IMG/VR virus record: IMGVR_UViG_3300045988_122638 | DNA from: a virus | Direction: 5' to 3' (one strand) | DNA length: 57,749 bases | Shown here: piece by piece, positions 16,816-47,483 of the stretch | Position numbering within the stretch: position 1 is the stretch's first letter | Layout of the letters: each line of letters opens with the position of its first letter | Translations under genes and position numbers: made by a program | The notes under the pieces: model-generated | What the model was told of the DNA's origin: nothing | The model's database searches: none | The model's input: only the letters and a program-made list of their open reading frames with translations

Positions 16816-16841
16816 CCATAAAAGGGCATGTTTTTTTCGCG
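16816..16841 (-). promoter_or_regulatory. Conserved 26-nt promoter-like motif, copy 1
   Basis: Minus strand: CGCGAAAAAAACATGCCCTTTTATGG. Directly follows a terminator and lies about 75 nt upstream of ATG 16742. Confidence 0.6.
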
Positions 16842-16842
16842 T

Positions 16843-16878
16843 ACGAAAAGAAAGAGCCTGTGTAGTTAACACAAGCTC
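16843..16878 (-). terminator. Rho-independent terminator
   Basis: Minus strand: GAGCTTGTGT-taact-ACACAGGCTC followed by TTTCTTTT. Confidence 0.75.
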
Positions 16879-16915
16879 TCAATAAAAAATATAAATTATC
16901 ATTTAACAAAAGTCA

Positions 16916-17266
16916 TTATAACTTTTCGTTATATATTTCTTCGTACTCATAGTTATCATTAAAATTTTCTCTTTCAATTTGATTATATACTGTACGTTCT
17001 CGAACATTGTTTCCGCACACTGGGCATATCCACCTACCATCGAGCACATCTGTTTTACCTTGTTGAAAATCCATATATTCATCACATTTGTTGCATTTCA
17101 CAAATAAAGGAATATCATCGTGATTTCTCTTTGAAGATGGTATTAACTTAATGACGTCTTCAAATATAACTTTAGATTTTCCTATACGTGTTCCATAACC
17201 GAATTCAAATCCTGAATGTTTGTATTGTTTGTAAAGTTTTTCATATTCTTTATCATGTGTTGTCAT
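16916..17266 (-). CDS. Zn-ribbon protein (start ATG 17266)
   Basis: ACGGAGGG RBS. Motifs CNKCDEY...CPVCGN. The track ORF 16916..17317 extends upstream into the promoter. Confidence 0.65.
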   Translation of the reverse strand: MTTHDKEYEKLYKQYKHSGFEFGYGTRIGKSKVIFEDVIKLIPSSKRNHDDIPLFVKCNKCDEYMDFQQGKTDVLDGRWICPVCGNNVRERTVYNQIERENFNDNYEYEEIYNEKL

Positions 17267-17305
17267 ATTCAATCCCTCCGTTCTTATTATATTAAATCTA
17301 TTATT

Positions 17306-17334
17306 ATTATAACACATTCATTCGGTTAATTCAA
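17306..17334 (-). promoter_or_regulatory. SigmaA-type promoter (TTGAAT-17-TATAAT, TGn-extended)
   Basis: Minus strand: TTGAATtaaccgaatgaatgtgtTATAAT, about 35 nt upstream of ATG 17266. Confidence 0.6.
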
Positions 17335-17434
17335 TGAGTTTAAATGTCAAAACAAACTTATTGGTCAAAAACCCGTTTATTTTTCTTGTACTATATATAT
17401 TTATATATTTTTTTATTCGCAATTAAATATAAAT

Positions 17435-17633
17435 AAAAGTGGGTATTTGACCACAAGTCCTTACAAACCGCATAGGTAAGCCATTTTTACGTGGTCATTT
17501 TTGTTTAAAAAGTGGGCTAAAAGTGGGCATTTGGCCATTTTTATTGCCGTTTTCAACTTGAAAATATACAACAAATCTATTGATGATTAACGTATTTTTT
17601 TATAAAAGTGGGCATTTGGTCATTTTTATAAAA
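17435..17633. repeat. Iteron-like direct repeats AAAGTGGGCATTTGGYCATTTTTAT; candidate origin or operator array
   Basis: Full copies at 17519-17545 and 17605-17631. Degenerate copy at 17435-17454. Half-sites at 17480-17503 and 17507-17520. All lie in a 345-bp AT-rich intergenic region. Confidence 0.7.
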
Positions 17634-17662
17634 TATAAATGTCCAAAAAATTTCAAATACAC

Positions 17663-17848
17663 CTATTGCTTTTTTCGTTCCATTGGACACCATTCTCGAC
17701 ATTGCGGATATGAGTCTTCAATGCATTTATTACAAATTATACTATGTCGCCCTTTATCGGGAATATCTTCTTCGAATTCTTTGATGATAGTTGTCCAGTT
17801 TCCATCCTCTTTACGAACAGGACACGACATTTTAGATTTTACTTTCAT
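17663..17848 (-). CDS. Small Cys-rich protein
   Basis: 61 aa with its own sigmaA-type promoter. Contains CP...CNKC...C..WC. Confidence 0.6.
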   Translation of the reverse strand: MKVKSKMSCPVRKEDGNWTTIIKEFEEDIPDKGRHSIICNKCIEDSYPQCREWCPMERKKQ

Positions 17849-17870
17849 CGTTTTTCACTCCTTTTTGTAT

Positions 17871-17899
17871 ATTATATCATACTTTAGCTGAAAAGTAAA
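17871..17899 (-). promoter_or_regulatory. SigmaA-type promoter (TTTACT-17-TATAAT)
   Basis: Minus strand: TTTACTtttcagctaaagtatgaTATAAT, upstream of ATG 17848. Confidence 0.55.
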
Positions 17900-17922
17900 A
17901 GGCCATGTTTATGACCTCTTAC
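17888..17922 (-). terminator. Rho-independent terminator, second conserved family, copy 1
   Basis: Minus strand: GTAAGAGG-tcataaacatgg-CCTTTTAC followed by TTTT. Similar to the copy at 38183-38215. Confidence 0.6.
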
Positions 17923-17935
17923 CCTTAGGAACTGA

Positions 17936-18133
17936 CTACGATATTGATATTAATATTCTATAGCGTTCGTTCAGCTTTTCGAATAAATCGTCGTCCACTG
18001 CTATACTGATATGAAATTCAATTCTCCCTTTACTGTTCATAACAGTTTCTACGAATCCTTGAATTTTTTTAGCATACAACATTCTTAGACATAATCCAAG
18101 TTGCTTATTATTTACCGCTAAAAAATACTTCAT
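17936..18133 (-). CDS. Hypothetical protein
   Basis: 65-aa ORF immediately downstream of motif copy 2 and a GGAAGGAG RBS. Confidence 0.6.
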   Translation of the reverse strand: MKYFLAVNNKQLGLCLRMLYAKKIQGFVETVMNSKGRIEFHISIAVDDDLFEKLNERYRILISIS

Positions 18134-18148
18134 AATATCACACTCCTT

Positions 18149-18174
18149 CCATAAAGGAAAATGAAAATTTTGCG
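18149..18174 (-). promoter_or_regulatory. Conserved 26-nt promoter-like motif, copy 2
   Basis: Minus strand: CGCAAAATTTTCATTTTCCTTTATGG. Its 3' end runs into the RBS GGAAGGAG. Confidence 0.55.
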
Positions 18175-18204
18175 AATATCGTAATTCTTTTAATAATATA
18201 ACCT

Positions 18205-18390
18205 TTATACAGACAATATGTATTTCACATTTTCGCGTGGAATGATTGCTAATGTTCTAAAAGAGTTATCTTTTTTAACCTCTTTGCAGACAATATAATT
18301 CGGATCAGCATAGTCAATTTCATTACAATTCTCATCAAAATCGAATCTAATTCCATCTTTCAAATATACTTCAAAATATCCTATCTCCAT
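18205..18390 (-). CDS. Hypothetical protein
   Basis: 61-aa ORF overlapping the upstream ORF. Confidence 0.55.
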   Translation of the reverse strand: MEIGYFEVYLKDGIRFDFDENCNEIDYADPNYIVCKEVKKDNSFRTLAIIPRENVKYILSV

Positions 18391-18590
18391 GTTTTACCCG
18401 TCCTCCTATCTGTTAAAATTATTCTTTCTTCAATTTCAAAATCTGCTAATTTGCAAATATAAAAAATCGTATGCAATAATTTATGAAACCGTTCGTCCTC
18501 ATCTTCTATATTTTTTAAAGCCTTATATGCTGTGGGATCATTGCAGCCTGATGCATTTTCTCTTAACAATTTCTCTTTATTGATCTCCAT
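18381..18590 (-). CDS. Hypothetical protein
   Basis: 69-aa ORF in a chain of overlapping ORFs. Confidence 0.55.
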   Translation of the reverse strand: MEINKEKLLRENASGCNDPTAYKALKNIEDEDERFHKLLHTIFYICKLADFEIEERIILTDRRTGKTWR

Positions 18591-18789
18591 GCTCTATCTC
18601 CTTTTCGGCATATTTATTAACAATATTTTTCAGGCTACTATTATCCGAAGATTTTTTAGATGACTCTAGGAATTTTCCATAAGCTTTTACTTGCGTACAA
18701 GTTTCTATACACTTTGCAATCCTGTCAATCAATATGTATATACACAGGAATGCAATTCCAACTAAAATTATTACTTTTGAAAATATCAT
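18577..18789 (-). CDS. Small membrane protein
   Basis: 70 aa. N-terminal TM helix IILVGIAFLCIYILI. Confidence 0.55.
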   Translation of the reverse strand: MIFSKVIILVGIAFLCIYILIDRIAKCIETCTQVKAYGKFLESSKKSSDNSSLKNIVNKYAEKEIEHGDQ

Positions 18790-18992
18790 TCCGCTTTACC
18801 TCCTCTGATATTTACAACGCCTGTGCATCCATCAGCCAATATAACTTTGGCATCTGACGGGAAGCATTTTAAGACTTTACTAATCTCCGCCGCACAAAGC
18901 GGTCGTCTTAACCCATCGTCATTATACGTTCTTAATTCCACTGTGTTTGAAATCTGCGAATATACAATATCCACTATATTTTTTCTAATCAT
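18786..18992 (-). CDS. Hypothetical protein
   Basis: 68-aa ORF coupled to the upstream stop. Confidence 0.55.
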   Translation of the reverse strand: MIRKNIVDIVYSQISNTVELRTYNDDGLRRPLCAAEISKVLKCFPSDAKVILADGCTGVVNIRGGKAE

Positions 18993-19461: not shown

Positions 19462-19615
19462 CATTAATGGACTATCTTTTACCATGATATTTATCATAGG
19501 ACACCATTTCGGTTTTCATGGGCTTCGTTTCCTAAAACCCAGCTACGTATCAATAGCAGCCCTACTCCCCCGCCCGGAAGGCATAGGGGATAGCCTCTAC
19601 AGGTTCATTTCGAAA

Positions 19616-19647
19616 TAAATAAAAAGAAAGAGCCCTTGTTAGGACTC
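19616..19647 (-). terminator. Conserved cassette terminator, copy E
   Basis: Minus strand: GAGUCC-uaacaa-GGGCUC followed by UUUCUUUUU. The ORF stop TAA lies in the loop. Confidence 0.65.
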
Positions 19648-19851
19648 CCCTTCTGATTTTTTGTGATCCTTAATGCATTTAGCGACCCAGCACATGTTGG
19701 ATGCTATTACGCCAACTAAAGCACCAGCCATGATTCCTTTCGTCGTTCCTTGATGTAATGCCTCATCGTAGAACGCGGTAAGTGTATCACCATGTGTTTT
19801 TAGTAATTCGTTAATAGTATCAATTCGTTCTTTCGTCATTTTAAATTTCAT
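19639..19851 (-). CDS. Intron-embedded small membrane protein (70 aa); not a homing endonuclease
   Basis: AAAGGAG RBS. Translation MKFKMTKERIDTINELL... with hydrophobic GIMAGALVGVIASNMCWVA. The track ORF to 19950 includes intron core and promoter. Confidence 0.6.
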   Translation of the reverse strand: MKFKMTKERIDTINELLKTHGDTLTAFYDEALHQGTTKGIMAGALVGVIASNMCWVAKCIKDHKKSEGES

Positions 19852-19865
19852 AAATATCACTCCTT

Positions 19866-19891
19866 TCATAATAGGAGTTGTTTTTATCGCG
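19866..19891 (-). promoter_or_regulatory. Conserved 26-nt promoter-like motif, copy 4 (inside the intron)
   Basis: Minus strand: CGCGATAAAAACAACTCCTATTATGA, followed by AAGGAG and ATG 19851. Confidence 0.55.
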
Positions 19892-20002
19892 AATATATTT
19901 TCGAAATGTTTCCCACGGGATTCCAATGGGTGGTTCCCCGTTAGCCGCATAAGCGACCCCTAGCGATAACTAGGAAAAGTGTTTCATTGGCAGAAAGAAT
20001 CT

Positions 20003-20309: not shown

Positions 20310-20562
20310 TGTTTTCTCCTTTCAAATCAGCATTTTTCAAAACCTCGGCGATGCTTCCGAGCGGTTCGCGAAGTCCTATAAAATATCCGTATTCTATGAA
20401 ACGCTCTGTGTATAATATGAGGTCATCCATATCTGAACGGCTCAAATTTTTCACACCGCATACAGTAAAGCAAGACCTCTCATCCCAGTTATCAATTTTT
20501 CTTTCGAGCATTGCCAAGAATTTTCTTGCTTTATCTCTTCTTTCGTTACCCATTATTATCAC
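20296..20562 (-). CDS. Hypothetical protein
   Basis: 88-aa ORF overlapping both neighbours. Confidence 0.55.
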   Translation of the reverse strand: MIIMGNERRDKARKFLAMLERKIDNWDERSCFTVCGVKNLSRSDMDDLILYTERFIEYGYFIGLREPLGSIAEVLKNADLKGENNDQN

Positions 20563-20962
20563 TCCAAATCACTATCAATTCTGAATATAAATCACCTTCA
20601 ATGAGAAGCCGTGAGCCGTTTACGAGTGTCTCATCTCTGAACAGCTCTTTTGCGGCTTCAAGCTTGATGACCGAATATCTGAATGTCGGGTAAAAAGGGG
20701 TTCCGTTCTGCACCTTGATGGGCATTAAATTCTTATACGGCTGATTTTTTGTCACTTCAATAAATACAACACCCATATTGAATTTAGCCTGACATTCTTC
20801 ACATGGTTCATAGTCAATGACAGCATTTCTCGGTGCTCCCGCATCATCTTTAAGTTTGCCAAGAAGAGCAATTTCGTTCTTTTCTTCACCGCACCAACAG
20901 CAGATAGGAATACACGGATTTACCCCATGTTTGGGTGATAATTTGAGCTCTTTTTTACTCAT
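20546..20962 (-). CDS. Cys-rich (Zn-binding) protein
   Basis: 138 aa. CCWCG...CEEC. AAAGGAG RBS. Downstream of motif copy 3. Confidence 0.6.
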   Translation of the reverse strand: MSKKELKLSPKHGVNPCIPICCWCGEEKNEIALLGKLKDDAGAPRNAVIDYEPCEECQAKFNMGVVFIEVTKNQPYKNLMPIKVQNGTPFYPTFRYSVIKLEAAKELFRDETLVNGSRLLIEGDLYSELIVIWSDNNG

Positions 20963-21034
20963 AACTTTTTACTCCTTTCAAAATATAAAAAAGTTAAGAC
21001 CCGATGTTTCCACCGAGTCTTTCGTTTGGGTTTC

Positions 21035-21060
21035 CCATAAAGGAACCTGCATTTTTCGCG
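21035..21060 (-). promoter_or_regulatory. Conserved 26-nt promoter-like motif, copy 3
   Basis: Minus strand: CGCGAAAAATGCAGGTTCCTTTATGG, about 70 nt upstream of ATG 20962. Confidence 0.55.
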
Positions 21061-32214: not shown

Positions 32215-32221
32215 ACTCCTT

Positions 32222-32740
32222 TTAAAATATAATTTTTTCGATTTTGGCTATCTTGCCGTTAAGAGGCATGTACACATTACAATTACCATATAGTTTTATC
32301 ACATTAGGCAATTTACGAGTGTCAACTATAAACTCGATAACGTCATCATTATAACTCCACTGATGAGTCGAATTTGTGTCACTATCGTCTTTTTGGTCAG
32401 CCAAGCAACCATAGAATATATTACCAGTATCAGTTGTAATTCTATATTTAGAACCAATTTCTGTACCGTAATGACTGCCCATAGCTATCAAATAGTAATC
32501 ATCAGTTATTCCCAAATCACGTTCGCCATCACAACGCATAAAACCGTCATAATCAGACCAACCCCAACGATCAATATATTTATACTGATCGCTGGACTGA
32601 CTTGTAATTGTTCGGTAATCCATATATGTTTTAAATGAGCTGTCTATATTTGGTGTTGACAATTCTATGTACTCATCAGCCGAAACTGATACTGAATTCA
32701 ATGCTACTGTCGCTAATAATATAGCTAATATTTTTCTCAT
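32222..32740 (-). CDS. Secreted protein (signal peptide), unknown function
   Basis: MRKILAILLATVALNSVSVSADE is a signal peptide. 172 aa. Confidence 0.6.
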   Translation of the reverse strand: MRKILAILLATVALNSVSVSADEYIELSTPNIDSSFKTYMDYRTITSQSSDQYKYIDRWGWSDYDGFMRCDGERDLGITDDYYLIAMGSHYGTEIGSKYRITTDTGNIFYGCLADQKDDSDTNSTHQWSYNDDVIEFIVDTRKLPNVIKLYGNCNVYMPLNGKIAKIEKIIF

Positions 32741-32751: not shown

Positions 32752-33699
32752 CTATATTAAATCGTATATTGGTCCGTCCACATTAAATGTTAATATAACT
32801 GTTGGGTCGTCCCCATCCAAGAAATTACGATTTTCTTGTTTTGTGTAATCGTAAATTCCAAAATCAACATAACCATCGCCTTTATAATCAGGATCATCCG
32901 GTCTATAAACCCATCCAACTATCTGTCCGGCTTTAGTTCTCTCATATCCGAGTTGATCATACAACTCGTTCAAGAAAATATGCCCTCTACTTTGAAGAAC
33001 ATCATTTGCCCAATTTTGAACCGATCGCAATACGTATAGATTATGGTCTGCATCTTTTTCCCAACCATCATTACCGGCATCGTAAACTCGTCTATACTCG
33101 GATGAAGCTATATCATCGATAATTGTAACGTTTTTTTCAACTGTTTTTTCTTCACCATTTTCATCTACAATTGTTTCGGTAACGGTTTCCGTTCTCACTC
33201 CGCACTTTAATTCTTTATCGATTTTCTCACCAAATCTTGTGATAACACGTTTGCGATAATCTTTAAAATTATTATCGATAGCCGTGTATGCAGCCATCAA
33301 AGCAACGTTACGCTTACGAAGTACATTATGAGCAGCTAATATGGACGCGATGCTTATTGCTCCTAACACGACTGCCGGCGCATAAATCTTAGCTAATTCC
33401 AGACCTGTTTTGGCGTATGTTATACTTAAGTCTTTTTTACAATCGTCCGCTGTATACTCCTCAATTATAAGTTCACCATCTTTATCGGTAGTTATTTGGC
33501 CTTTTTCTTCAGCAGCGTGTATCTTGTCAACGTTGTTTTTTGTCTCGTTCAATATATCATCGATTTTAGTAGTAGCTTTGCAAGCCATAACCGCACTTAC
33601 CACTGTTCCAGCAATACCCGCAACCATCATGATTTCAGGGCTGTGTTTTTTTATTTGTAATCCTATTCTATTTATAGTTCTTGTAATTTTCGCATTCAT
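32752..33699 (-). CDS. Two-TM paralog family protein, member 1 (315 aa)
   Basis: Shares IKKHSPEI..GIAG...KAT, a second TM helix and a C-terminal LNELYDQLG...GQIVGW block with ORFs 35372..36136 and 36694..37461. Confidence 0.7.
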   Translation of the reverse strand: MNAKITRTINRIGLQIKKHSPEIMMVAGIAGTVVSAVMACKATTKIDDILNETKNNVDKIHAAEEKGQITTDKDGELIIEEYTADDCKKDLSITYAKTGLELAKIYAPAVVLGAISIASILAAHNVLRKRNVALMAAYTAIDNNFKDYRKRVITRFGEKIDKELKCGVRTETVTETIVDENGEEKTVEKNVTIIDDIASSEYRRVYDAGNDGWEKDADHNLYVLRSVQNWANDVLQSRGHIFLNELYDQLGYERTKAGQIVGWVYRPDDPDYKGDGYVDFGIYDYTKQENRNFLDGDDPTVILTFNVDGPIYDLI

Positions 33700-35336: not shown

Positions 35337-35362
35337 CCATAATACAAATTGTTTTTTTCGCG
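35337..35362 (-). promoter_or_regulatory. Conserved 26-nt promoter-like motif, copy 8
   Basis: Minus strand: CGCGAAAAAAACAATTTGTATTATGG, about 45 nt upstream of ATG 35292. Confidence 0.6.
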
Positions 35363-35371: not shown

Positions 35372-36136
35372 TTAGCAATAGTCATACTCTGGTGACACTG
35401 CGTATTCTATAGCTAAGCATGGATTTCCATCGTCCGCCAATAGTGGCACATATGATATATCTATTAGACCTCTATCTATATTCCAACCTAATTGGTCACC
35501 CATTTTAGTAAAACTCAACCCGAGTTCATAATAGAAATCGTTCAAAGATATATATGACTCGCTAAGCATTCGCCTGTTTAGTTCATTTACTATTTTTTTA
35601 ATAGTATCTATATCAGACTTAAAATATCGACCACTCACCGAATCATAGCAAAGTGTATCTCCTTTTGATGTAATAATAACCTCTTTATTAGCCATTGGAT
35701 TATTCTCTATTTTTTCTTTTACGATTTTTGTTTTTATTTCTTCAGCCTTTTTTTCGCCTACAGTCTCTGCTACTTTTTCTTGATAACTTTTTAATGTAGC
35801 TTCGGTCATAGCATAAACACTTGCTAATGCCGTATTTCTCTTGAAACTTACTGTTGACGCTCCTATCAAACATGTCGCCGACATCAATATCGTTATTGCA
35901 GACGGAATATAACATTTCCAAGTACATTTTACAACCTCTATCGGCTGTAATTTACTTACTTGTTGTTCATCTTTTTCGCATTCGATATTCTTCAAAGCTT
36001 TAGGTGTGGCTTTTACAGCCATCACTGTAGCAGAAATCATACCGGCAATTCCTATACCTGTTAGTATTTCAGGACTATGCTTTTTTATTTTTCTACCTAT
36101 ATTTTTTGTTATAACTGACAAATTTTTGTTCATCAT
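35372..36136 (-). CDS. Two-TM paralog family protein, member 2 (254 aa)
   Basis: IKKHSPEILTGIGIAGMISATVMAVKATPKAL and LNDFYYELG...GDQLGW blocks. Confidence 0.7.
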   Translation of the reverse strand: MMNKNLSVITKNIGRKIKKHSPEILTGIGIAGMISATVMAVKATPKALKNIECEKDEQQVSKLQPIEVVKCTWKCYIPSAITILMSATCLIGASTVSFKRNTALASVYAMTEATLKSYQEKVAETVGEKKAEEIKTKIVKEKIENNPMANKEVIITSKGDTLCYDSVSGRYFKSDIDTIKKIVNELNRRMLSESYISLNDFYYELGLSFTKMGDQLGWNIDRGLIDISYVPLLADDGNPCLAIEYAVSPEYDYC

Positions 36137-36458: not shown

Positions 36459-36488
36459 TAAAAAAGAAAAGAGTCCTTGTTAGGACTC
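36459..36488 (-). terminator. Conserved cassette terminator, copy D
   Basis: Minus strand: GAGTCC-taacaa-GGACTC followed by TTTTCTTTTTT. Confidence 0.65.
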
Positions 36489-36664: not shown

Positions 36665-36690
36665 TCATAATAGAGATTGTTATTTACGCG
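36665..36690 (-). promoter_or_regulatory. Conserved 26-nt promoter-like motif, copy 5
   Basis: Minus strand: CGCGTAAATAACAATCTCTATTATGA, then AGGGAGGTG and ATG 36647. Confidence 0.55.
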
Positions 36691-36693: not shown

Positions 36694-37461
36694 TCACAAC
36701 CAACCATCGAGATAATCCGATGTTGGAGCAAAGGGCATGGAAATTAAACATACTTCCATTCCATCATCTGTTGTTATAAAATCGTGTTCAAAATCAACCC
36801 AGCTATAGCCATAAAACGCCATACCTGCATCTATACTCCAACCTATCGTGTCTCCACCTTTGATCTTATCTATTCCTAAAAAATCATATAATTCATTTAA
36901 CGTAGCATATCCGCGTAAAGTAAAATTTCTATTAAAATGATACTCTGCAGATATCACATCTACTTTATTCGATTCAAAATATCTTTTTGAAAACATATCA
37001 TAAAATAAACTTTTTTCTTCTGAAGACACCTCAGGTTTTGTATCACGATAAATATCTTTAGCCATTTCTTTATCTACAGCAGCATCATCTCCATACATTT
37101 CATTAACTTTATCTCTATACTCTGTATATGATTTTTGTAATAATGCATAAGCGCTTATGAGAGATGCTTGTTGCTTTTTATTAAGAATATTAGCACCTAA
37201 TATACAAGCTATAGTTGAAACACCTATAATTATAGTAGGTAGATATATATGAGTCGTAGTTATGATTTTTTCTTTATTCGATAATTTATCACCTTTTTCT
37301 TTTTCTGCCTCTTCTATAGAATATAAAGCTTTAGGTGTCGCTTTAATTGCACTAACAGCAGTAATAACTACACCTGCCGTACCTATACCAGTAAGAATGG
37401 TAGCTACGTTTTTCTTAATGAAACATCCTGTTTTACTTAATAATTTATTCATTCTATTCAC
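36694..37461 (-). CDS. Two-TM paralog family protein, member 3 (255 aa)
   Basis: FIKKNVATILTGIGTAGVVITAVSAIKATPKAL and LNELYDFLG...GDTIGW blocks. Confidence 0.7.
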   Translation of the reverse strand: MNRMNKLLSKTGCFIKKNVATILTGIGTAGVVITAVSAIKATPKALYSIEEAEKEKGDKLSNKEKIITTTHIYLPTIIIGVSTIACILGANILNKKQQASLISAYALLQKSYTEYRDKVNEMYGDDAAVDKEMAKDIYRDTKPEVSSEEKSLFYDMFSKRYFESNKVDVISAEYHFNRNFTLRGYATLNELYDFLGIDKIKGGDTIGWSIDAGMAFYGYSWVDFEHDFITTDDGMEVCLISMPFAPTSDYLDGWL

Positions 37462-37474: not shown

Positions 37475-37508
37475 AAAAAATAAAAGAAAAGAGCCCTTGT
37501 TAGGACTC
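37475..37508 (-). terminator. Conserved cassette terminator, copy C
   Basis: Minus strand: GAGTCC-taacaa-GGGCTC followed by TTTTCTTTTATTTTTT. Confidence 0.65.
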
Positions 37509-37515
37509 TGTTTTC

Positions 37516-37734
37516 TTATTGTTCATTGGGAACAACAGAATTGAGTAATTTTTCAAGTCTGTCTGTGAATTCCCTTTGTTTATCCACACATGCCATTCCT
37601 GTTGTAGATAGTTCGGCGGTTTTTGAAGCGATCATAGCTACTAAAGGATCGTTTGGTCTCTCCTCAATTAGCTTACACACTAAAAATCCTACCTCTCCAA
37701 TCTCCCGGAATAATTTTTTTGTTGTTTCTAACAT
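37516..37734 (-). CDS. Hypothetical small protein (cassette C cargo)
   Basis: 72 aa with an AAAGGAG RBS, flanked by motif copy 9 and terminator C. Confidence 0.6.
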   Translation of the reverse strand: MLETTKKLFREIGEVGFLVCKLIEERPNDPLVAMIASKTAELSTTGMACVDKQREFTDRLEKLLNSVVPNEQ

Positions 37735-37776
37735 AATAATTCTCCTTTCAAAATATAAACTCGTGGTCTATTGTTT

Positions 37777-37802
37777 CCATAATACGTATTGTTTTTTTCG
37801 CG
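37777..37802 (-). promoter_or_regulatory. Conserved 26-nt promoter-like motif, copy 9
   Basis: Minus strand: CGCGAAAAAAACAATACGTATTATGG, about 40 nt upstream of ATG 37734. Confidence 0.6.
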
Positions 37803-38738: not shown

Positions 38739-38764
38739 CCATAAAAGAAACTGTTTTTTATGCG
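38739..38764 (-). promoter_or_regulatory. Conserved 26-nt promoter-like motif, copy 10
   Basis: Minus strand: CGCATAAAAAACAGTTTCTTTTATGG, about 35 nt upstream of ATG 38701. Confidence 0.55.
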
Positions 38765-38830: not shown

Positions 38831-38862
38831 AAACAAAAAAGAAAGAGCCCTTGTTGGGACTC
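38831..38862 (-). terminator. Conserved cassette terminator, copy B
   Basis: Minus strand: GAGTCC-caacaa-GGGCTC followed by TTTCTTTTTTGTTT. Confidence 0.65.
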
Positions 38863-38868: not shown

Positions 38869-39165
38869 TTAATCTGTTGAATAAATACTACCGTTCATAG
38901 TTTTAGGAATACAAGAAATATCCCAAACTCGAATAACTTTCAGTTCGTTTATCAATGAGCACCATTCGGTATTAGAAGCTTTAAATACTATATGCCATAT
39001 ACGACCATCTGACCAAATCCTAATACGTCCATATAATAATGTTTTGACGCAATTCCGATTTTTGTTAATAACCTCTATGGTTTTTAGTACATCATCTTCA
39101 AATACAATAAAATGATGAGTTTTGATTATGAACTTATTCATAAGTTTGTTAAGTGTATTGTTCAT
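38869..39165 (-). CDS. Hypothetical protein (cassette B cargo)
   Basis: 98 aa with an AGGAGGAG RBS, flanked by motif copy 6 and terminator B. Confidence 0.6.
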   Translation of the reverse strand: MNNTLNKLMNKFIIKTHHFIVFEDDVLKTIEVINKNRNCVKTLLYGRIRIWSDGRIWHIVFKASNTEWCSLINELKVIRVWDISCIPKTMNGSIYSTD

Positions 39166-39180: not shown

Positions 39181-39206
39181 TCATAATAGGGTATGATAAA
39201 TATGCG
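39181..39206 (-). promoter_or_regulatory. Conserved 26-nt promoter-like motif, copy 6
   Basis: Minus strand: CGCATATTTATCATACCCTATTATGA, then TAGGAGGAG and ATG 39165. Confidence 0.55.
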
Positions 39207-39211: not shown

Positions 39212-39628
39212 TTATCTTCTATACTTACTTAACAAATAGAAGAATCGTCTATATCTATCATAATATATATCCCTTGAACAAGGCATATTCATTTGTAATC
39301 GAAGAGCTTCATATGATAATCCTTGTGTAACAGCTTTAAATATATAACTTGCCAACTCGATATCTGCATCATTTGCCGCCTTATTAACCATATCCATTCT
39401 TTCGCGATAGTATAATCTTTTTTCCACAGTTTCAGCTGTATAGTCCGTTATTTTATTTGTTTGACTGTTTTTCTTTAAATCAGAAATCTTAGTAAAATCT
39501 GATAACTCGTTATATTGTTTTTCCCACAATGGGTACTGTAAGCAAAAATGTTTTAATTCGTAATAACGATGTTCATTGATGTAGTATTTGTTCTTTTCAG
39601 AAATTTTTGGTCGTATAGTTGTACTCAT
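39212..39628 (-). CDS. Sigma-70 region-4-like / ArpU-RinA-type phage transcriptional activator (start ATG 39628)
   Basis: 138 aa. YYELKHFCLQYPLWEKQY... and a C-terminal HTH-like GLSYEALRLQMNMPCSRDIYYDRYRRFF. Assigned from memory of the pattern. Confidence 0.45.
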   Translation of the reverse strand: MSTTIRPKISEKNKYYINEHRYYELKHFCLQYPLWEKQYNELSDFTKISDLKKNSQTNKITDYTAETVEKRLYYRERMDMVNKAANDADIELASYIFKAVTQGLSYEALRLQMNMPCSRDIYYDRYRRFFYLLSKYRR

Positions 39629-39968: not shown

Positions 39969-40059
39969 AACACATCGAGTGGAAATATCCACTTTTTTCT
40001 GTAATCAAAAAAACTCCTTTCTTAAATATAAATTACGATGTTGGTTTTATAAAAAAGAG

Positions 40060-40133
40060 AATGGCATGCAAGAATCGAACTTGCGACCCTCAGATAGATA
40101 TATCTGCCGCTCTACCAACTGAGCTAATGTCTT
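40060..40133 (-). tRNA. tRNA-like gene with an atypical 8-nt anticodon loop and 2 acceptor-stem mismatches; possible attP partner or pseudo-tRNA
   Basis: Minus strand: AAGACAT-TA-GCTC-AGTTGGTA-GAGC-G-GCAGA-TATATCTA-TCTGA-GGGTC-GCAAG-TTCGATT-CTTGC-ATGCCAT-T. D and T arms are canonical. Motif copy 11 lies 5 nt upstream and CTCTTTTTT follows downstream. Confidence 0.45.
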
Positions 40134-40138: not shown

Positions 40139-40164
40139 TCATAATACGCCTTGTAAATTTCGCG
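40139..40164 (-). promoter_or_regulatory. Conserved 26-nt promoter-like motif, copy 11 (drives the tRNA-like gene)
   Basis: Minus strand: CGCGAAATTTACAAGGCGTATTATGA. Confidence 0.55.
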
Positions 40165-40522: not shown

Positions 40523-40551
40523 TTGACAATTCCTACACTTTGATGTATAAT
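40523..40551 (+). promoter_or_regulatory. Consensus sigmaA promoter for the integrase (TTGACA-17-TATAAT)
   Basis: TTGACAattcctacactttgatgTATAAT. The -35 box is embedded in the inverted repeat GTAGGA-N9-TCCTAC. Confidence 0.7.
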
Positions 40552-44002: not shown

Positions 44003-45460
44003 CTATTCCTCCATTGAACTTATTGCTTGCATATTAGCATTCACTATATTTCCGCTTATATCAGAACCGGTAGGAGTGGAACTTGTTAATGAGTATCGAG
44101 ATATGTTTCCTTTTACACTCGAATAGTGATTAAACGAGAATATATTACTTTTATTATTGTATACCATATTATTAGCGAATATAGCACAGTATTGTGTATA
44201 CACGCCCGTTGTATTGTATTGAGTAAATACAATTATATTATTATCTACGATATAGTACCCGAAGTAAATGGTTGTACCCGTTATTACTATTTTGCAATTA
44301 GATATAGTACCAGAGCCACTTCTTGTTTGAGTTGGACTCGTGCATTTTACATAAGAAGAATCTATTGTCATTCCTGTAGCAGCACCATCGTTTGATATAA
44401 ATTGTGGGCTTATTAATTTACAACCTGTAGCTCTACCACTGCAGTTATAGAATATGTTTATATTATAACTGCCTGATGATCTTTTGGCTCTTGCGACCAA
44501 TAAATTAGCAAGTATTTTACAATCTCTAAATACCGCACCGCATTCCCCATCATTATCGTTGAATGTTATGTTTGTATTGAGACGATTTATATGTATATTA
44601 CCTCTTGTAGCAATTGCTGTTGGATTATGGGTTACCGTACCTGATTTTATTGAGACATTGAAATCACAATTATCAAGATACAGGTTATCTGTTCCGACTA
44701 AATTGAATATGCCGTTCTCTATATTACTAGCCTCAATACTACAATCTTTAAAAGTAATATTATTGTTACCACTTGAATTTATAAGTGTTGATGAAACATT
44801 TATCGTTGTTCCAGGACCCATGCCCTCAATTATTATTTTTTTACCGCTCAGTGATAAAGGACCTTTAATAGTATAGTCACCCTCTAAAACTGTAATTTTA
44901 CCACCGATATATAATTGATTAATGGCTTGCTGGAATATAGAAGTGTGATCCTGATTATCCGGACAAATATAATTAGCTAACCATTGGTGTTGAGAGTCTC
45001 TACAAGCAATCGTAATTGATGTTGGCGGAGCAAGTTTTTCATTACCCACCAAGTCATTCACATCACTTGTTAAGTCATCCATGGATGCATAACCATTACT
45101 TGGAAAATAACTACCTGTTGCACCGGTTGCTCCTTGTGGTCCTCTTATACATGCTTTGTACTGCCATCTCGCTGTTGTTCCGCTACCTGCAGTCGAACAT
45201 TGATAAATATATCCGTACGAAGTGTTTAGATAAATATCGCCAACTTTAACCAATGGGCAAGAAGTATACGAATATGTGCTTGATGTACTGGTGCCGCTCA
45301 TAGCAGTACCCGTATACCATTGACTTCCACCCATATTCACATTACCACTTCCGGTGCCCATAAAAAATTCACGAGAATCGGTGGTATATGCCGGTTCTCC
45401 TGCCGAAAGAGTTGGCAATTTAGATTTTAACCCTCTTCTTAATAAGATTTTGTTCGCCAT
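44003..45460 (-). CDS. Receptor-binding / tail spike protein with beta-helix (pectate-lyase-like) repeats
   Basis: The N-terminus MANKILLRRGLKSKLPTLSAGEPAYTTD is shared with the upstream gene. Repeats of the type NITFKDCSIEASN..LYLDNCDFNVS follow. Confidence 0.65.
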   Translation of the reverse strand: MANKILLRRGLKSKLPTLSAGEPAYTTDSREFFMGTGSGNVNMGGSQWYTGTAMSGTSTSSTYSYTSCPLVKVGDIYLNTSYGYIYQCSTAGSGTTARWQYKACIRGPQGATGATGSYFPSNGYASMDDLTSDVNDLVGNEKLAPPTSITIACRDSQHQWLANYICPDNQDHTSIFQQAINQLYIGGKITVLEGDYTIKGPLSLSGKKIIIEGMGPGTTINVSSTLINSSGNNNITFKDCSIEASNIENGIFNLVGTDNLYLDNCDFNVSIKSGTVTHNPTAIATRGNIHINRLNTNITFNDNDGECGAVFRDCKILANLLVARAKRSSGSYNINIFYNCSGRATGCKLISPQFISNDGAATGMTIDSSYVKCTSPTQTRSGSGTISNCKIVITGTTIYFGYYIVDNNIIVFTQYNTTGVYTQYCAIFANNMVYNNKSNIFSFNHYSSVKGNISRYSLTSSTPTGSDISGNIVNANMQAISSMEE

Positions 45461-45473
45461 GGATTAAACCTCC

Positions 45474-46139
45474 TTAAAATGTTCCTCCATCTATTGTACT
45501 TGTTGAGTCCAATTTAGAGTTCCATGCTGTTTTTTCTGCATCTGAAACAAAGCGATGCGTTGAATCTTGTGTAATCATACTTGCCGGATGTGATGTCGGA
45601 TGTGTGTAATTCGACAAACCTGCAAGCTTCTCTTTTTCCGCTGTTGTATAATCCTCAGTTGAAAGTTGTTTACCGTCTACTTTGTCAACTTTCTTATTAA
45701 GTTCCTCTACCGTTGCATAGCCGCTTAAATCAACAGTTGTGTCATCAAGCAATACTACTTCCGAATCAACTTTAGCATAAATATCATAGTGATTAGTCTT
45801 GCCATTCATAACAAGATACAATACGTTATCTTCTGCTGTTTCTGTAGATGGAACGCTGTCAACTTTCTTGAATGACGCGTGTCCTGTTGCTGCAATTGCT
45901 GCCGCTACGGTAGTAGCAACTTCACTTTCTGTTTGAAACTTACTGTCGTTCGTCAACTCTGAAACCTTTGTCGGAACTGTTACATCCGGATTCAGAAGAA
46001 TGTTTGATCCACCATTGCCTGCATAAAGAGCAATTTTTGTTTTGTCATCATTATAAGCAAGTGCCAATTCGCCCTCTGCTAGTGTTAGATTTGAAAGATT
46101 TTTGATTAAACCTCTTTTGATTAAAATTGTGTTTGCCAT
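45474..46139 (-). CDS. Tail fibre protein (start ATG 46139)
   Basis: MANTILIKRGLIKNLSNLTLAEGELALAYND is an N-terminal fibre motif. TGGAGG RBS. Confidence 0.65.
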   Translation of the reverse strand: MANTILIKRGLIKNLSNLTLAEGELALAYNDDKTKIALYAGNGGSNILLNPDVTVPTKVSELTNDSKFQTESEVATTVAAAIAATGHASFKKVDSVPSTETAEDNVLYLVMNGKTNHYDIYAKVDSEVVLLDDTTVDLSGYATVEELNKKVDKVDGKQLSTEDYTTAEKEKLAGLSNYTHPTSHPASMITQDSTHRFVSDAEKTAWNSKLDSTSTIDGGTF

Positions 46140-46158
46140 TTTGAATTCCTCCATTTTT

Positions 46159-46941
46159 TTAATATTTTCCGCCATCTAAGACAGCGTTTACTTGTGTTGA
46201 TATCTTCAACGGTTCGAAATCTCCACAATCAAACTCATCTGTCGGTTCATTGTCGAAATCTCCACCATCAAATTCTATTTCATCATAGTCTTGCTCAAAT
46301 AAACCACCGTCGTATATTACAATACCAAGTGCAGTTTGTAAAAGCATTATTTCTCGCATCAAAGATGCTATCTGTTCGTTATTATAAGCAGCATGTTCAT
46401 CAAGTTGTTCCTGTGTCACCTGTTCCTTAATGCCATTCCATTTTTCAATGTCTGTAGAACTAATCCCATCAAGAACTTCCTTGTTATCGTGCGTATGTGC
46501 TTTTGATTTTAGAGTGCTTATATCTTCACTCATAACCTCATCAGTTTTAACTCGTTCGTTTATTCGTTCGGATAAATCCTTATCTGCATTGGATCGTTTT
46601 GTCACTTCGTCATTCAGTGCCGCTCTATTAGAGTCTGCTGCCGAACGTGCGTCAACCGCTTTGTCATGCGCTATTTTAACCGCATATGGAGTTGCCGCCA
46701 CCGAGTTTGAATCATTAGAAGTATTACTTACACTGTCTGATAAAGTTACATGACCTGAAACACTGCCCGTTGCTTTTGCGTTCGAATGATCTGTAAGGTC
46801 GGTACGCAACTTCTTGCAGGACTCTGTATTTGACTCTGTTTCTTTGTTTACAGCATTAATAGAGTCATATAATGCTGTTCGTACTTCTCTGCCGTAAATA
46901 GCAGACTTGATTTTGTTTAACCAATCGGATATATTCGCCAT
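46159..46941 (-). CDS. Baseplate upper / tail fibre protein (BppU-N-like N-terminus)
   Basis: WLNKIKSAIYGREVRTALYDSINAVN motif, then a coiled-coil shaft. Confidence 0.6.
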   Translation of the reverse strand: MANISDWLNKIKSAIYGREVRTALYDSINAVNKETESNTESCKKLRTDLTDHSNAKATGSVSGHVTLSDSVSNTSNDSNSVAATPYAVKIAHDKAVDARSAADSNRAALNDEVTKRSNADKDLSERINERVKTDEVMSEDISTLKSKAHTHDNKEVLDGISSTDIEKWNGIKEQVTQEQLDEHAAYNNEQIASLMREIMLLQTALGIVIYDGGLFEQDYDEIEFDGGDFDNEPTDEFDCGDFEPLKISTQVNAVLDGGKY

Positions 46942-46943
46942 GG

Positions 46944-47321
46944 TTATCCCTCCTCGTCTTCAAGCATCCATTCAAGCTTTAGTATTTCCTCACCGCTTAA
47001 GATGCCTATGACCTCGTTGTAATTGAGCTTCATAAACTCAACCTCATGCTTGATAGTTGCAATTTCAGAAAACTCCTTTTCAAATTCTTTAAAATGTTCT
47101 GATTTCGGAGTTACAACTATTCTGCCTGTCAGCTCACCGTTGATTATTTCTTTCTCGCCATACTTAGTTATAAGCTCTTGCTTGATTTGAAAATATTCAG
47201 TAAGTGCCGTGTTTAATAGGCGAGTATTTCTGGCGGCAACATAGCCGACTTTGTCTACATGCCCGAGTACTGATTGTACTTGTCCGAGCATAGTTTCCAT
47301 TTCAACATTCATTAGTTTCAT
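46944..47321 (-). CDS. Hypothetical tail-module protein
   Basis: 125-aa ORF coupled to the downstream fibre gene. Confidence 0.5.
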   Translation of the reverse strand: MKLMNVEMETMLGQVQSVLGHVDKVGYVAARNTRLLNTALTEYFQIKQELITKYGEKEIINGELTGRIVVTPKSEHFKEFEKEFSEIATIKHEVEFMKLNYNEVIGILSGEEILKLEWMLEDEEG

Positions 47322-47356
47322 ATAGTTTTAATCACCTCCGTTGTTGAAAAATTGCA

Positions 47357-47387
47357 TAAAAAAAAGAAGGAGCCCTTGTTAGGACTC
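47357..47387 (-). terminator. Conserved cassette terminator, copy A
   Basis: Minus strand: GAGTCC-taacaa-GGGCTC followed by CTTCTTTTTTTT. Confidence 0.65.
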
Positions 47388-47457
47388 TTTGGTTTTTGTT
47401 TATTTCTTTATACGTTTGATTCCATATTCACAAGTAATCATAACTTATCACTCCTTT

Positions 47458-47483
47458 CCATAATAGGAGCTGTTATTTTTGCG
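47458..47483 (-). promoter_or_regulatory. Conserved 26-nt promoter-like motif, copy 7 (overlaps the XRE stop codon)
   Basis: Minus strand: CGCAAAAATAACAGCTCCTATTATGG. Followed only by a 13-codon mini-ORF (47400-47441) and terminator A. Confidence 0.55.

What the first reader, a model, noticed from the sequence alone, without database searches (positions are those of the whole stretch)
16816..47483. Eleven copies of a fixed-spacing 26-nt motif, all intergenic and all on the minus strand: a candidate phage-specific promoter class
Minus-strand sequences of the 11 copies:
1. CGCGAAAAAAACATGCCCTTTTATGG (16841-16816)
2. CGCAAAATTTTCATTTTCCTTTATGG (18174-18149)
3. CGCGAAAAATGCAGGTTCCTTTATGG (21060-21035)
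4. CGCGATAAAAACAACTCCTATTATGA (19891-19866)
5. CGCGTAAATAACAATCTCTATTATGA (36690-36665)
6. CGCATATTTATCATACCCTATTATGA (39206-39181)
7. CGCAAAAATAACAGCTCCTATTATGG (47483-47458)
8. CGCGAAAAAAACAATTTGTATTATGG (35362-35337)
9. CGCGAAAAAAACAATACGTATTATGG (37802-37777)
10. CGCATAAAAAACAGTTTCTTTTATGG (38764-38739)
11. CGCGAAATTTACAAGGCGTATTATGA (40164-40139)

The three conserved blocks are CGCr at positions 1-4, CA at 12-13 and TTATGr at 21-26. They keep identical spacing in every copy, about one helical turn apart. Every copy lies just after a stop codon or terminator and upstream of a gene start.

The genome also has ordinary TTGACA-17-TATAAT promoters (int, XRE, the moron, early genes), so this is a second promoter class.

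In five copies the motif runs straight into the Shine-Dalgarno sequence (TTATGGAAAGGAG). A sigma70-style start 7 nt after TATTAT would therefore delete the RBS. Initiation at the G of TTATGr, as in T7-like promoters, would keep it. In copy 11 that G is 6-7 nt before the 5' end of the tRNA-like gene.

Two hypotheses, both inference: the motif is read by the phage YonO-like RNAP, or by host RNAP carrying the phage sigma-like factor (39212-39628). The second gives a possible cascade: sigmaA, then sigma-like factor, then motif promoters (including the RNAP gene behind copy 1), then late genes.
Basis: partly seen in the sequence, partly recalled or inferred. Interest (0 to 1): 0.85.

Follow-up and report, generated by a model that had tools for sequence, protein, structure and literature searches.

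The report
Promoter class of polymerase-encoding phages
Eleven copies of a 26-base signal sit just ahead of genes in this gut-phage genome, and the same signal recurs in related phages of very different bacteria that all encode one unusual single-protein RNA polymerase, so it is most likely the start signal that polymerase reads.

Summary
CGCR-N7-CA-N7-TTATGR occurs 11 times, all on the minus strand, against 0.06 expected. There are no one-mismatch copies. A matrix trained only on relatives recovers exactly these 11 sites.

The motif is not private to this genome. The same 26-nt geometry, always on the gene strand, recurs in 79 IMG/VR relatives (68 vs 0 by strand) and in phages FP_oengus, KeaneyLin, 1706 and HotFries. 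A motif-only scan of IMG/VR returns almost only this lineage.

The lineage's signature gene is here at 13163-15919. It encodes a 918-aa QDE-1/YonO-type two-barrel polymerase with an invariant DFDGD and three helix-turn-helix units.

Ribosome-binding sites, tRNA 5' ends and a conserved leader hairpin begin at motif positions 25-28. Transcription must therefore start at or before about G25, not about 7 nt after the TATAAT-like hexamer. No -35 is conserved.

Best reading (about 0.6): a compact -24 to +2 promoter read by the phage's own polymerase. The "sigma-like" gene has no sigma features and no detected homologue in the two lytic relatives tested, which keep the motif. No start-site or biochemical data exist, and I found no published description of the motif.

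The parts
16816..16841 (-). Motif copy 1 (CGCGAAAAAAACATGCCCTTTTATGG). It has the highest score and lies 99 nt upstream of the endonuclease-exonuclease-polymerase operon. It is the best conserved copy across relatives.
16772..16817 (-). Leader hairpin whose 5' arm starts at motif position 25, followed by a T-rich tail. It is either a 5'-terminal stabiliser or an attenuator.
   Evidence: in 35 of 43 distinct relatives the hairpin starts at motif positions 25-27; mean dG -15.6 vs -8.0 for shuffles
18149..18174 (-). Motif copy. It runs directly into the SD of the 65-aa gene 17936-18133.
19866..19891 (-). Motif copy. It runs directly into the SD of a roughly 70-aa gene that ends at terminator 19650-19627.
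21035..21060 (-). Motif copy that follows terminator 21108-21070. Its leader holds a second terminator-like hairpin (21021-20996) before gene 20546-20962.
35337..35362 (-). Motif copy 10 nt after the stop of a DUF6353 gene. It heads the long replication operon.
36665..36690 (-). Motif copy that runs directly into an SD. It heads a single-gene cassette ending at terminator 36488-36471.
37777..37802 (-). Motif copy heading the cassette for the 72-aa gene 37516-37734, which ends at terminator 37509-37490.
38739..38764 (-). Motif copy that follows terminator 38862-38845, ahead of a 154-aa gene (phrog_15866).
39181..39206 (-). Motif copy that runs directly into an SD. It heads the cassette for the 98-aa gene 38869-39165.
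40139..40164 (-). Motif copy in the divergent region next to the integrase module. Position 26 lies 5 nt before the tRNA-like gene.
40059..40133 (-). tRNA-like gene driven by the copy above (Rfam tRNA, 39.2 bits; 6-nt anticodon loop).
47458..47483 (-). Motif copy in the tail/lysis region. It heads a mini-unit of SD, a 13-codon ORF and terminator 47387-47370.
13163..15919 (-). 918-aa single-subunit two-barrel RNA polymerase candidate. It has DFDGD at residues 520-524, two N-terminal HTH units (about 47-123) and one C-terminal sigma-region-4-like HTH (about 880-917).
12898..13146 (-). 82-aa protein (phrog_4303) that lies directly after the polymerase gene in all four reference phages. It is a possible accessory factor of unknown function.

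Best explanation
The 26-nt motif is a compact promoter. If transcription starts at G25, it spans about -24 to +2. It is read by the phage's own single-subunit two-barrel (QDE-1/YonO-type) RNA polymerase, the 918-aa protein encoded at 13163-15919.

Proposed working (all inferred): the polymerase's fused helix-turn-helix modules dock on one face of the DNA at CGCR (-24 to -21), at the A-tract and at CA (-13/-12). The T/A-rich TWTWAT (-6 to -1) is melted. RNA starts with the conserved purines at positions 25/26.

The copies drive the small-gene cassettes, a tRNA and the replication operon. The best conserved copy drives the endonuclease-exonuclease-polymerase operon, probably with the late genes behind it, which would give positive feedback.

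Shown: the motif, its bounds, its lineage-wide conservation, its strand and position rules, the polymerase fold and catalytic motif, and the upper bound on the start site.

Inferred: which enzyme binds, the exact +1, and the role of the HTH modules.
For: (1) Non-random and bounded: 11 vs 0.06 expected. A matrix trained on relatives separates the 11 sites (21-46 bits) from everything else (9.2 or less).

(2) Conserved with the polymerase lineage.
- The exact pattern occurs 68 times on the polymerase strand and 0 times on the other in 79 IMG/VR loci whose polymerases are 42-99% identical.
- FP_oengus has 15 copies scoring above 12 bits and KeaneyLin has 9, all on the gene strand. Lactococcus phage 1706 has about 12 and Streptomyces phage HotFries (61% GC) has 6. 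All keep the same 26-nt geometry.
- A scan of 2.9 million viral contigs with the DNA pattern alone gave 118 new loci. 116 of them encode homologues of this window's proteins, 88 the endonuclease and 74 the polymerase.

(3) Flanks are not conserved but the block is, in 28 aligned upstream regions of the polymerase operon.

(4) The geometry is not that of a sigma70 promoter.
- No -35 is conserved (information 0.12 bit or less at -9 to 0, except Y at -1).
- The would-be A-11 is A in only 28% of sites.
- Among 125 distinct copies, the SD core starts at positions 25-28 in about 20 and never earlier than position 25, the earliest start seen.
- The tRNA acceptor 5' end, read from the sequences, falls at position 26-27 in L056, L064 and FP_oengus.
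- The leader hairpin starts at 25-27 in 35 of 43 relatives.
- The RNA 5' end must therefore lie 0-2 nt after the hexamer.

(5) The genome does use canonical TTGACA-like/TGnTATAAT promoters elsewhere, at 17899-17871, 17334-17306, 48007-47979 and 40523-40551. The motif is therefore a distinct class.

(6) The candidate reader is a real polymerase homologue. DFDGD is invariant in 45 sequences. The AlphaFold model matches QDE-1 at E 2.5e-8, then RDR2, with weak matches to cellular RNAP large subunits and crAss gp66. It carries three HTH units, the C-terminal one resembling sigma region 4.

(7) No sigma-like protein is among the proteins shared by all four reference phages.

(8) Precedent: other two-barrel phage polymerases have their own short promoters that reach +1. 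Examples are phiKZ, (-3)TATG(+1), in PMC7618050, and P23-45 in bioRxiv 10.1101/2022.12.01.518664.
Against: There are no transcript 5' ends, no rifampicin test and no in vitro data for any member, so the enzyme assignment is circumstantial.

The polymerase gene itself sits behind a motif copy, so something else must make the first molecules. In the lytic relatives, the early-looking small genes that carry the motif would need pre-existing polymerase. Virion packaging is unproven, and the 1706 record does not label orf75 as structural.

In the actinophage relatives the hexamer is a perfect TATAAT/TANNNT, and their leaders are long. Host sigma-A use cannot be excluded there.

Co-occurrence with the lineage cannot separate the polymerase from other lineage-wide proteins of unknown function: DUF6353 in three copies, phrog_4079 and the 82-aa phrog_4303.

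SPbeta YonO, the only characterised relative in bacteria, uses one late promoter of undefined sequence. It is too distant to transfer evidence; tblastn did not reach it.
Confidence: 0.6

Rival explanations
1. The motif is a promoter read by host RNA polymerase that a phage-encoded specificity factor has redirected. The factor could be a sigma-like protein or an activator. In temperate members it could be the 138-aa protein at 39215-39628. It could also be the HTH modules of the polymerase-like protein acting as a recruiter rather than as an enzyme.
For: The polymerase gene lies behind a motif copy. This is easier to explain if the host enzyme does the work.

The 94-aa and 138-aa genes next to the integrase have their own sigma-A-like promoter (39968-39940) and precede the run of motif copies, here and in FP_oengus.

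The hexamer resembles a -10, and is a perfect TATAAT in KeaneyLin.

The 138-aa protein is all-helical with a C-terminal helix-turn-helix-like trio.
Against: The 138-aa protein has no significant Pfam, NCBIfam or PDB sequence match and no significant structural match. tblastn finds no homologue in KeaneyLin or 1706, which keep the motif.

No sigma-like protein is among the proteins shared by all four reference phages.

The conserved blocks lie at -24/-21, -13/-12, -7 and -6 to +2, and conservation runs through +1. This does not fit any sigma70-family -35/-10 geometry.

The catalytic DFDGD of the polymerase-like protein is invariant. That argues it works as an enzyme.
Confidence: 0.2
2. The copies are ordinary host sigma-A promoters. 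The -10 would be TWTWAT and the -35 weak. The CGCR-A7-CA part would be an operator or UP-like element for a phage regulator.
For: Seven of the 11 copies have TATTAT, which matches 5 of 6 positions of the -10 consensus. One copy scores as TGGACA-18-TATTAT in the consensus scan. The actinophage versions have TATAAT/TATAGT.
Against: The key A-11 is absent in most copies in gut relatives (T in 65%), and FP_oengus uses CTTTAT almost throughout.

No -35 is conserved.

A start about 7 nt after the hexamer would remove the SD in about 20 copies. It would also truncate tRNA acceptor stems and the conserved leader hairpin.

The same upstream block is kept in phages of Clostridia, Lactococcus, Arthrobacter and Streptomyces, including lytic phages that need no immunity operator. 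The block is not palindromic.
Confidence: 0.1
3. The motif is not a promoter. It would be a strand-specific protein-binding or RNA-processing site, for example an RNase cleavage signal, an antitermination site or a nucleoid or replication protein site, placed between cassettes.
For: The evidence is sequence-only, and processing sites are also strand-specific and intergenic. The motif often sits next to terminators.
Against: Several copies follow intrinsic terminators, so downstream genes need a new start. These copies are at 16841, 21060 and 38764.

Copy 40164-40139 lies in a divergent region with no upstream co-oriented gene.

The motif keeps a fixed 0-3 nt distance to SDs, tRNA 5' ends and 5' hairpins. 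That is what a +1 signal predicts.
Confidence: 0.05

Closest known systems
T7/T3/SP6-type single-subunit phage RNA polymerase promoters
   Same: They are compact, contiguous promoters of about 23-26 bp, repeated many times on the gene strand. An upstream binding region is followed by a T/A-rich melting segment directly before a purine +1 and a purine-rich initial transcript. The 1706 version (ACACTATAGTAGAAAG) even resembles SP6/T7 CACTATAG by eye.
   Different: The enzyme here is a two-barrel (beta/beta'-like, DFDGD) polymerase of the QDE-1/YonO type, not a Pol-A-family enzyme. The promoter reaches further upstream (-24) and has three blocks about 10 bp apart. The enzyme carries HTH modules that T7-type enzymes lack.
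Late promoters of the phiKZ and AR9 non-virion multisubunit RNA polymerases
   Same: These are non-canonical beta/beta'-type phage enzymes whose promoter consensus touches the start site. In phiKZ it is (-3)TATG(+1), and in AR9 it lies at -11 to -8 (PMC7618050). The TTATG-R block here has the same form as TATG(+1) if G25 is +1.
   Different: Those enzymes have four or five subunits, including a sigma-like subunit. The phiKZ consensus is only 4-5 bp. AR9 needs uracil DNA. The enzyme here is one polypeptide and the promoter is 26 bp.
SPbeta YonO and its late promoter P_YonO
   Same: YonO is a single-polypeptide two-barrel polymerase of a temperate Firmicutes phage. Its gene sits just upstream of a non-coding gap and the late structural operon (PMC5467207). 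The interval that contains the mapped P_YonO start, between the published primers, holds TCATTTATGAGGG, which resembles the 3' block.
   Different: YonO is too distant for tblastn to reach, and no HTH modules are reported for it. It uses one promoter for one 37-gene operon. Its promoter sequence is undefined, and no CGCR or CA blocks are seen upstream of the candidate site.
Thermus phage P23-45 gp64 and gp96, and crAss-like phi14:2 gp66
   Same: These are single-chain two-barrel phage polymerases, each tied to its own conserved DNA motif upstream of mapped starts. In P23-45 the polymerase gene itself lies within a phage-polymerase-transcribed block (bioRxiv 10.1101/2022.12.01.518664).
   Different: The sequence motifs differ (AT-rich and GC-rich). 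The virion-packaged enzymes are fused to, or are, large virion proteins. There is no evidence here for packaging, and no HTH fusions are described there.
The putative RNA polymerase of the actinophage / Lactococcus / Faecalibacterium supercluster (Koert et al., bioRxiv 10.1101/842583)
   Same: This is the same protein family. It is described there as an HTH protein with an HHpred match to RdRP (95.7%), a DxDGD loop, and HTH domains at both ends, and as the signature gene of the group.
   Different: That work proposes only possible polymerase activity. It reports no promoter, repeat motif or transcription map. The motif described here is not mentioned there, nor in the Arthrobacter phage paper.

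Membership tests
Sigma70/sigma-A promoter | A conserved -35 (TTGACA-like) lies 16-18 bp upstream of the -10. | tested here: not met
   Positions -9 to 0 carry 0.12 bit or less, except Y at -1. The upstream flank is unconserved in 28 aligned relatives.
Sigma70/sigma-A promoter | The -10 hexamer has near-invariant A-11 and T-7. | tested here: inconclusive
   T-7 (position 24) is invariant. Position 20 is A in 28% and T in 65% of relatives' copies. FP_oengus uses CTTTAT, but KeaneyLin uses TATAAT.
Sigma70/sigma-A promoter | Transcription starts about 6-8 nt downstream of the -10. | tested here: not met
   This was tested indirectly. SD cores start at positions 25-28 in about 20 of 125 copies and never earlier than 25. 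The tRNA 5' end, read from the sequences, falls at 26-27. Leader hairpins start at 25-27 in 35 of 43 relatives. No direct TSS data exist.
Sigma54 (-24/-12) promoter | Invariant GG at -24 and GC at -12 (TGGCAC-N5-TTGCW). | tested here: not met
   The block spacing is similar, but GG is absent and position 11 is G in only 14% of sites. From general knowledge, the Actinobacteria hosts lack sigma54.
T7-like phage promoter | It is read by a Pol-A-family single-subunit RNA polymerase encoded by the phage. | tested here: not met
   The only polymerase-like gene found is of the two-barrel QDE-1 type. The resemblance is functional, not membership.
Promoter of a phage two-barrel (YonO/QDE-1-type) RNA polymerase | The phage encodes such a polymerase with an intact catalytic motif. 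| tested here: met
   DFDGD at residues 520-524 is invariant in 45 sequences. Foldseek matches QDE-1 at E 2.5e-8. The PHROG 4291 match is full length.
Promoter of a phage two-barrel (YonO/QDE-1-type) RNA polymerase | The motif co-occurs with the polymerase across phages and lies on the gene strand upstream of genes. | tested here: met
   The pattern-only scan gave 116 of 118 loci from the lineage.
Promoter of a phage two-barrel (YonO/QDE-1-type) RNA polymerase | Primary transcripts start at the motif, and they depend on the phage polymerase and not on host RNAP. | not testable with these tools
   This needs Cappable-seq or dRNA-seq, rifampicin treatment, a polymerase mutant and in vitro transcription.
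Sigma factor (for the 138-aa protein at 39215-39628) | Sigma70 region 2 and/or region 4 domains are detectable by sequence or fold. | tested here: not met
   There is no significant Pfam, NCBIfam or PDB match. The PHROG 11237 family has unknown function. The model has pLDDT 83 and its best Foldseek E is 1.6.
N4 virion-RNAP hairpin promoter | The promoter forms a short DNA hairpin (5-7 bp stem, 3-nt loop) centred upstream of +1. | tested here: not met
   Only the five SD-abutting copies show CTCC...GGAG complementarity around the hexamer. The other six do not.

The most novel reading that the evidence does not exclude
A very large, uncharacterised family of roughly 100-kDa single-polypeptide two-barrel RNA polymerases finds its own 26-bp promoter without any sigma or accessory subunit. 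It would do so through helix-turn-helix modules fused to the catalytic core, one per conserved block. The family reached the 8000-cluster scoring cap in each of two searches, and it occurs in phages of gut Clostridia, Lactococcus and soil Actinobacteria. In temperate gut phages the polymerase would drive its own operon, so the lytic programme would be locked in by a polymerase positive-feedback loop rather than by a cascade of host-polymerase regulators.
Probability: 0.45. Interest if true: 0.85.

Novelty: new variant of a known kind. Interest (0 to 1): 0.72.

Why it matters
Promoters for YonO/QDE-1-type single-chain polymerases are essentially unknown. The SPbeta paper states that the YonO promoter remains to be determined (PMC5467207).

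This finding offers a sharply defined 26-bp candidate promoter, with hundreds of natural variants, for a polymerase family that is abundant in the human gut and in soil phages. That makes several questions directly testable.
- How does a minimal two-barrel polymerase recognise and melt a promoter?
- Can fused HTH modules replace sigma?
- How do temperate gut phages wire their lytic switch?

If confirmed, a roughly 100-kDa polymerase plus a 26-bp promoter that works in both Firmicutes and Actinobacteria would also be a candidate orthogonal expression system. It would also improve the annotation of thousands of phage genomes in which this protein is labelled 'HTH DNA-binding protein' or 'RNA-dependent RNA polymerase'.

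Tried and rejected
(1) A megablast search of the region against GenBank phages found no close relative. Relatives had to be found through the polymerase protein.

(2) Sequence searches of the polymerase and of the 138-aa protein against PDB found nothing. Only the fold search of the polymerase model was informative.

(3) Folding a long segment that included the motif, to locate the hairpin's 5' boundary, was uninformative. The A-tract pairs with downstream T-runs. It was replaced by folding leaders from position 25 with a shuffle control.

(4) I looked for a motif copy between the polymerase operon and the late genes (12213-12897). There is none, only a weak TTTAC-N5-TATAATGG look-alike that scores at background. 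Relatives L006 and L007 do have a copy there.

(5) The element TTATATTTTGAAAGGAG, seen after five long-leader copies, is not tied to the motif in relatives (2 of 14). It is probably just an A/U-rich ribosome-binding region.

(6) The repeated terminator GAGTCCTAACAAGGGCTC is not conserved in the lineage; it appears only in near-identical contigs. It is not evidence for a polymerase-specific terminator.

(7) Literature searches for a described promoter of YonO-like enzymes, phage 1706, FP_oengus or Cluster AM phages found none.

(8) Sigma54-like and N4-hairpin readings were considered and rejected (see the membership tests).

Full report
**Observation.** The pattern CGCR-N7-CA-N7-TTATGR occurs 11 times in the 57.7-kb window. 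All 11 are on the minus strand, at exactly the coordinates given, against 0.06 expected. There are no one-mismatch copies, and the two-mismatch matches are at chance level.

A weight matrix trained only on relatives, with near-identical contigs excluded, gives the 11 sites 21-46 bits. The next best site in the window scores 9.2, and shuffled sequence reaches 14.3 at most. The family is therefore real, complete and sharply bounded.

Nearly all genes are on the minus strand. Each copy lies between genes, directly upstream of one of three things: a ribosome-binding site, a tRNA-like gene, or a structured leader.
- Three copies follow predicted intrinsic terminators.
- One copy (40164-40139) lies in a divergent region beside the integrase module, where no upstream transcript could arrive.

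These points favour a start signal over a processing site.

**What the genome is.** The window looks like a whole, circularly permuted temperate siphophage of gut Clostridia.
- It encodes an integrase, a primase-polymerase, a helicase, a terminase, a portal and a protease-capsid fusion.
- Prophage relatives occur in Oscillospiraceae, Faecalibacterium, Christensenellaceae and Lachnospiraceae MAGs.

The 918-aa ORF at 13163-15919 is a full-length member of PHROG 4291.
- It has DFDGD at residues 520-524, invariant in a 45-sequence alignment.
- Its AlphaFold model (pLDDT 76) matches QDE-1 at E 2.5e-8 and plant RDR2. It matches cellular RNAP large subunits and crAss-like gp66 only weakly.
- It carries two N-terminal HTH units and a C-terminal HTH that resembles sigma region 4.

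This family is the signature gene of the Actinobacteria/Firmicutes phage supercluster described by Koert et al. They suggested polymerase activity but described no promoter.

**Conservation of the motif.**
- In 79 IMG/VR loci found through the polymerase (42-99% identity), the exact pattern occurs 68 times on the polymerase strand and never on the other.
- Faecalibacterium phage FP_oengus has 15 copies scoring above 12 bits, of the form CGCGAAAAATACAGCCTCCTTTATGG. Arthrobacter phage KeaneyLin has 9, of the form CGCGTAAATTACAnGGGCTATAATGA. All are on the gene strand.
- Lactococcus phage 1706 has about 12 copies of C[AG]CA[TA]GTTTTACAnnnnCTATAGTAG.
- Streptomyces phage HotFries (61% GC) has six copies with the same geometry, such as CGCACGTTTTACATGCTTTATAGTGAgacccc.

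In every genome the copies start where the structural/lysis module ends and the small-gene region begins. One copy always sits about 0.9 kb upstream of the polymerase gene, ahead of the endonuclease-exonuclease-polymerase operon. In an alignment of 28 such regions, the 26-33 nt block is conserved and both flanks are not.

A scan of IMG/VR with the DNA pattern alone returned 118 new loci. Of these, 116 encode homologues of this window's proteins: 88 the endonuclease and 74 the polymerase. The motif is therefore a trait of this lineage across two host phyla.

**Where transcription must start.** Across 125 distinct copies, the Shine-Dalgarno core begins at motif positions 25-28 in about 20 of them. 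It never begins earlier than position 25. An example is TTATGGAGGTGATATTTATG in L007.

Reading the flanking sequences, the tRNA acceptor stem begins at position 26-27 in L056, L064 and FP_oengus. In this window the tRNA begins at position 32.

The leader behind the polymerase-operon copy forms a hairpin. Its 5' arm begins at positions 25-27 in 35 of 43 distinct relatives, with mean dG -15.6 against -8.0 kcal/mol for shuffles.

The RNA 5' end must therefore lie at or before about position 25-27. That is 0-2 nt after the TATAAT-like hexamer, not the 6-8 nt required by sigma70-family holoenzymes. Three further points argue against a sigma70 promoter.
- No -35 is conserved.
- The would-be A-11 is A in only 28% of copies.
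- The genome uses clear TTGACA-like/TGnTATAAT promoters elsewhere.

If G25 is +1, the conserved blocks lie at -24 to -21, -13/-12, -7 and -6 to +2. Conservation that runs through +1 resembles T7-type promoters and the phiKZ (-3)TATG(+1) late promoter (PMC7618050).

**Who reads it.** This step is inference. The polymerase is favoured for three reasons.
- It is the lineage's signature enzyme.
- It is catalytically intact.
- It carries three DNA-binding HTH units, while the motif has three blocks about one helical turn apart.

No sigma-like protein is among the proteins shared by the four reference phages. Those proteins are three DUF6353 paralogues, phrog_4079, the DNA polymerase, an annealing protein, the helicase, the endonuclease, the exonuclease, the polymerase and an 82-aa protein directly after it.

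- It has no significant Pfam, NCBIfam or PDB match.
- A confident model has no significant structural neighbour.
- tblastn finds a homologue only in temperate FP_oengus, next to its integrase, and none in lytic KeaneyLin or 1706.

**Weak points.**
- The polymerase gene lies behind a motif copy, so the first molecules must come from something else. Candidates are read-through from the sigma-A promoters at 17899 and 17334, or host use of the hexamer.
- The lytic relatives would need early polymerase, and virion packaging is untested.
- The actinophage hexamers are perfect host -10 boxes.
- I could not separate the polymerase from other lineage-wide proteins of unknown function.

**Comparison and novelty.** The SPbeta paper states that the YonO promoter is undetermined. 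The interval holding the mapped P_YonO start contains TCATTTATGAGGG, a resemblance to the 3' block only.

I found no description of this motif in the searchable literature. It is best filed as a new variant of a known kind. It would be a phage-polymerase promoter, but for an uncharacterised and very abundant family of HTH-bearing single-chain two-barrel polymerases.

**Scores.** I put about 0.85 on 'it is a transcription start signal'. I put about 0.6 on 'it is read by the phage polymerase itself'.

Noticed in passing
window 16772-16817 (-), and the equivalent site in L004-L081: A purine-rich/pyrimidine-rich hairpin starts at the predicted +1 of the polymerase-operon promoter. In about half of the relatives a T-run follows it. 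It could be a 5' stabiliser against 5' exonuclease, or a promoter-proximal attenuator like lambda tR'.
   Followed up: partly
window 19627-19650, 36471-36488, 37490-37509, 38845-38862, 47370-47387 (-): Five near-identical terminator hairpins (GAGTCCTAACAAGGGCTC plus a T-run) close single-gene units that each open with a motif copy. Together they form promoter-gene-terminator cassettes. The hairpin sequence is found only in near-identical contigs (L003, L010), not across the lineage.
   Followed up: yes
window 40059-40133 (-): This tRNA-like gene scores 39.2 bits against Rfam tRNA. ARAGORN reports no normal anticodon, and the anticodon loop appears to have 6 nt. An alternative outer stem, AAGAGAA...UUCUCUU, would start at motif position 26. 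Relatives also place tRNAs directly behind motif copies.
   Followed up: partly
window 17434-17629: Three 27-nt direct repeats (TAAAAGTGGGCATTTGGYCATTTTTAT) are spaced 84-85 nt apart in the most AT-rich, poorly coding stretch, just upstream of the polymerase operon. They look like iterons, so this may be a replication origin or a regulator array.
   Followed up: partly
window 17871-17899 and 17306-17334 (-): Two strong sigma-A-type promoters with an extended -10 (TTTACT-17-TGaTATAAT and TTGAAT-17-TGtTATAAT) precede two small cysteine-rich proteins. They show what host-type promoters look like in this phage, and they are a possible source of the first polymerase transcripts.
   Followed up: partly
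window 47370-47483 (-): A complete mini transcription unit sits inside the tail/lysis region. It consists of the motif, an SD, a 13-codon ORF (MITCEYGIKRIKK) and a terminator. It may encode a small peptide or RNA, or be a decayed cassette.
   Followed up: no
window 12213-12897 (-): A 690-nt non-coding gap separates the 82-aa gene from the late genes. It contains a G/C-rich stretch (GGGGGGTCTC...CCCCCCTCCC) near 12440-12500. In KeaneyLin the physical genome end falls at the equivalent place, so this is probably the cos region. SPbeta has a 1.7-kb non-coding gap at the same position, after yonO-yonN.
   Followed up: partly
window 32752-33699, 35372-36136, 36694-37461 (-): Three paralogous DUF6353 genes (phrog_2152) are conserved in all four reference phages. 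Their function is unknown. Two of them end a few bases before a motif copy.
   Followed up: partly
window 12898-13146 (-): An acidic 82-aa protein (phrog_4303) always lies directly after the polymerase gene, in phages of both Firmicutes and Actinobacteria. It could be a polymerase partner.
   Followed up: partly
L085 about 6430-6445 (SPbeta, minus strand): The interval bounded by the published P_YonO primer-extension primers contains TCATTTATGAGGG. This resembles the TTTATGR block, but there are no upstream CGCR or CA blocks.
   Followed up: partly
window 44003-45460 (-): A 485-aa tail-region protein has an Mtd_N (major tropism determinant N-terminal) domain. This hints at a receptor-binding protein of the type that diversity-generating retroelements target. 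I did not look for a retroelement.
   Followed up: no
window 20972-20988, 32216-32232, 37742-37758 and others (-): TTATATTTTGAAAGGAG recurs just before start codons: 18 matches with 3 or fewer mismatches against 3.8 expected, all on the minus strand. In relatives it is not linked to the promoter motif. It is probably an A/U-rich translation-initiation region.
   Followed up: yes
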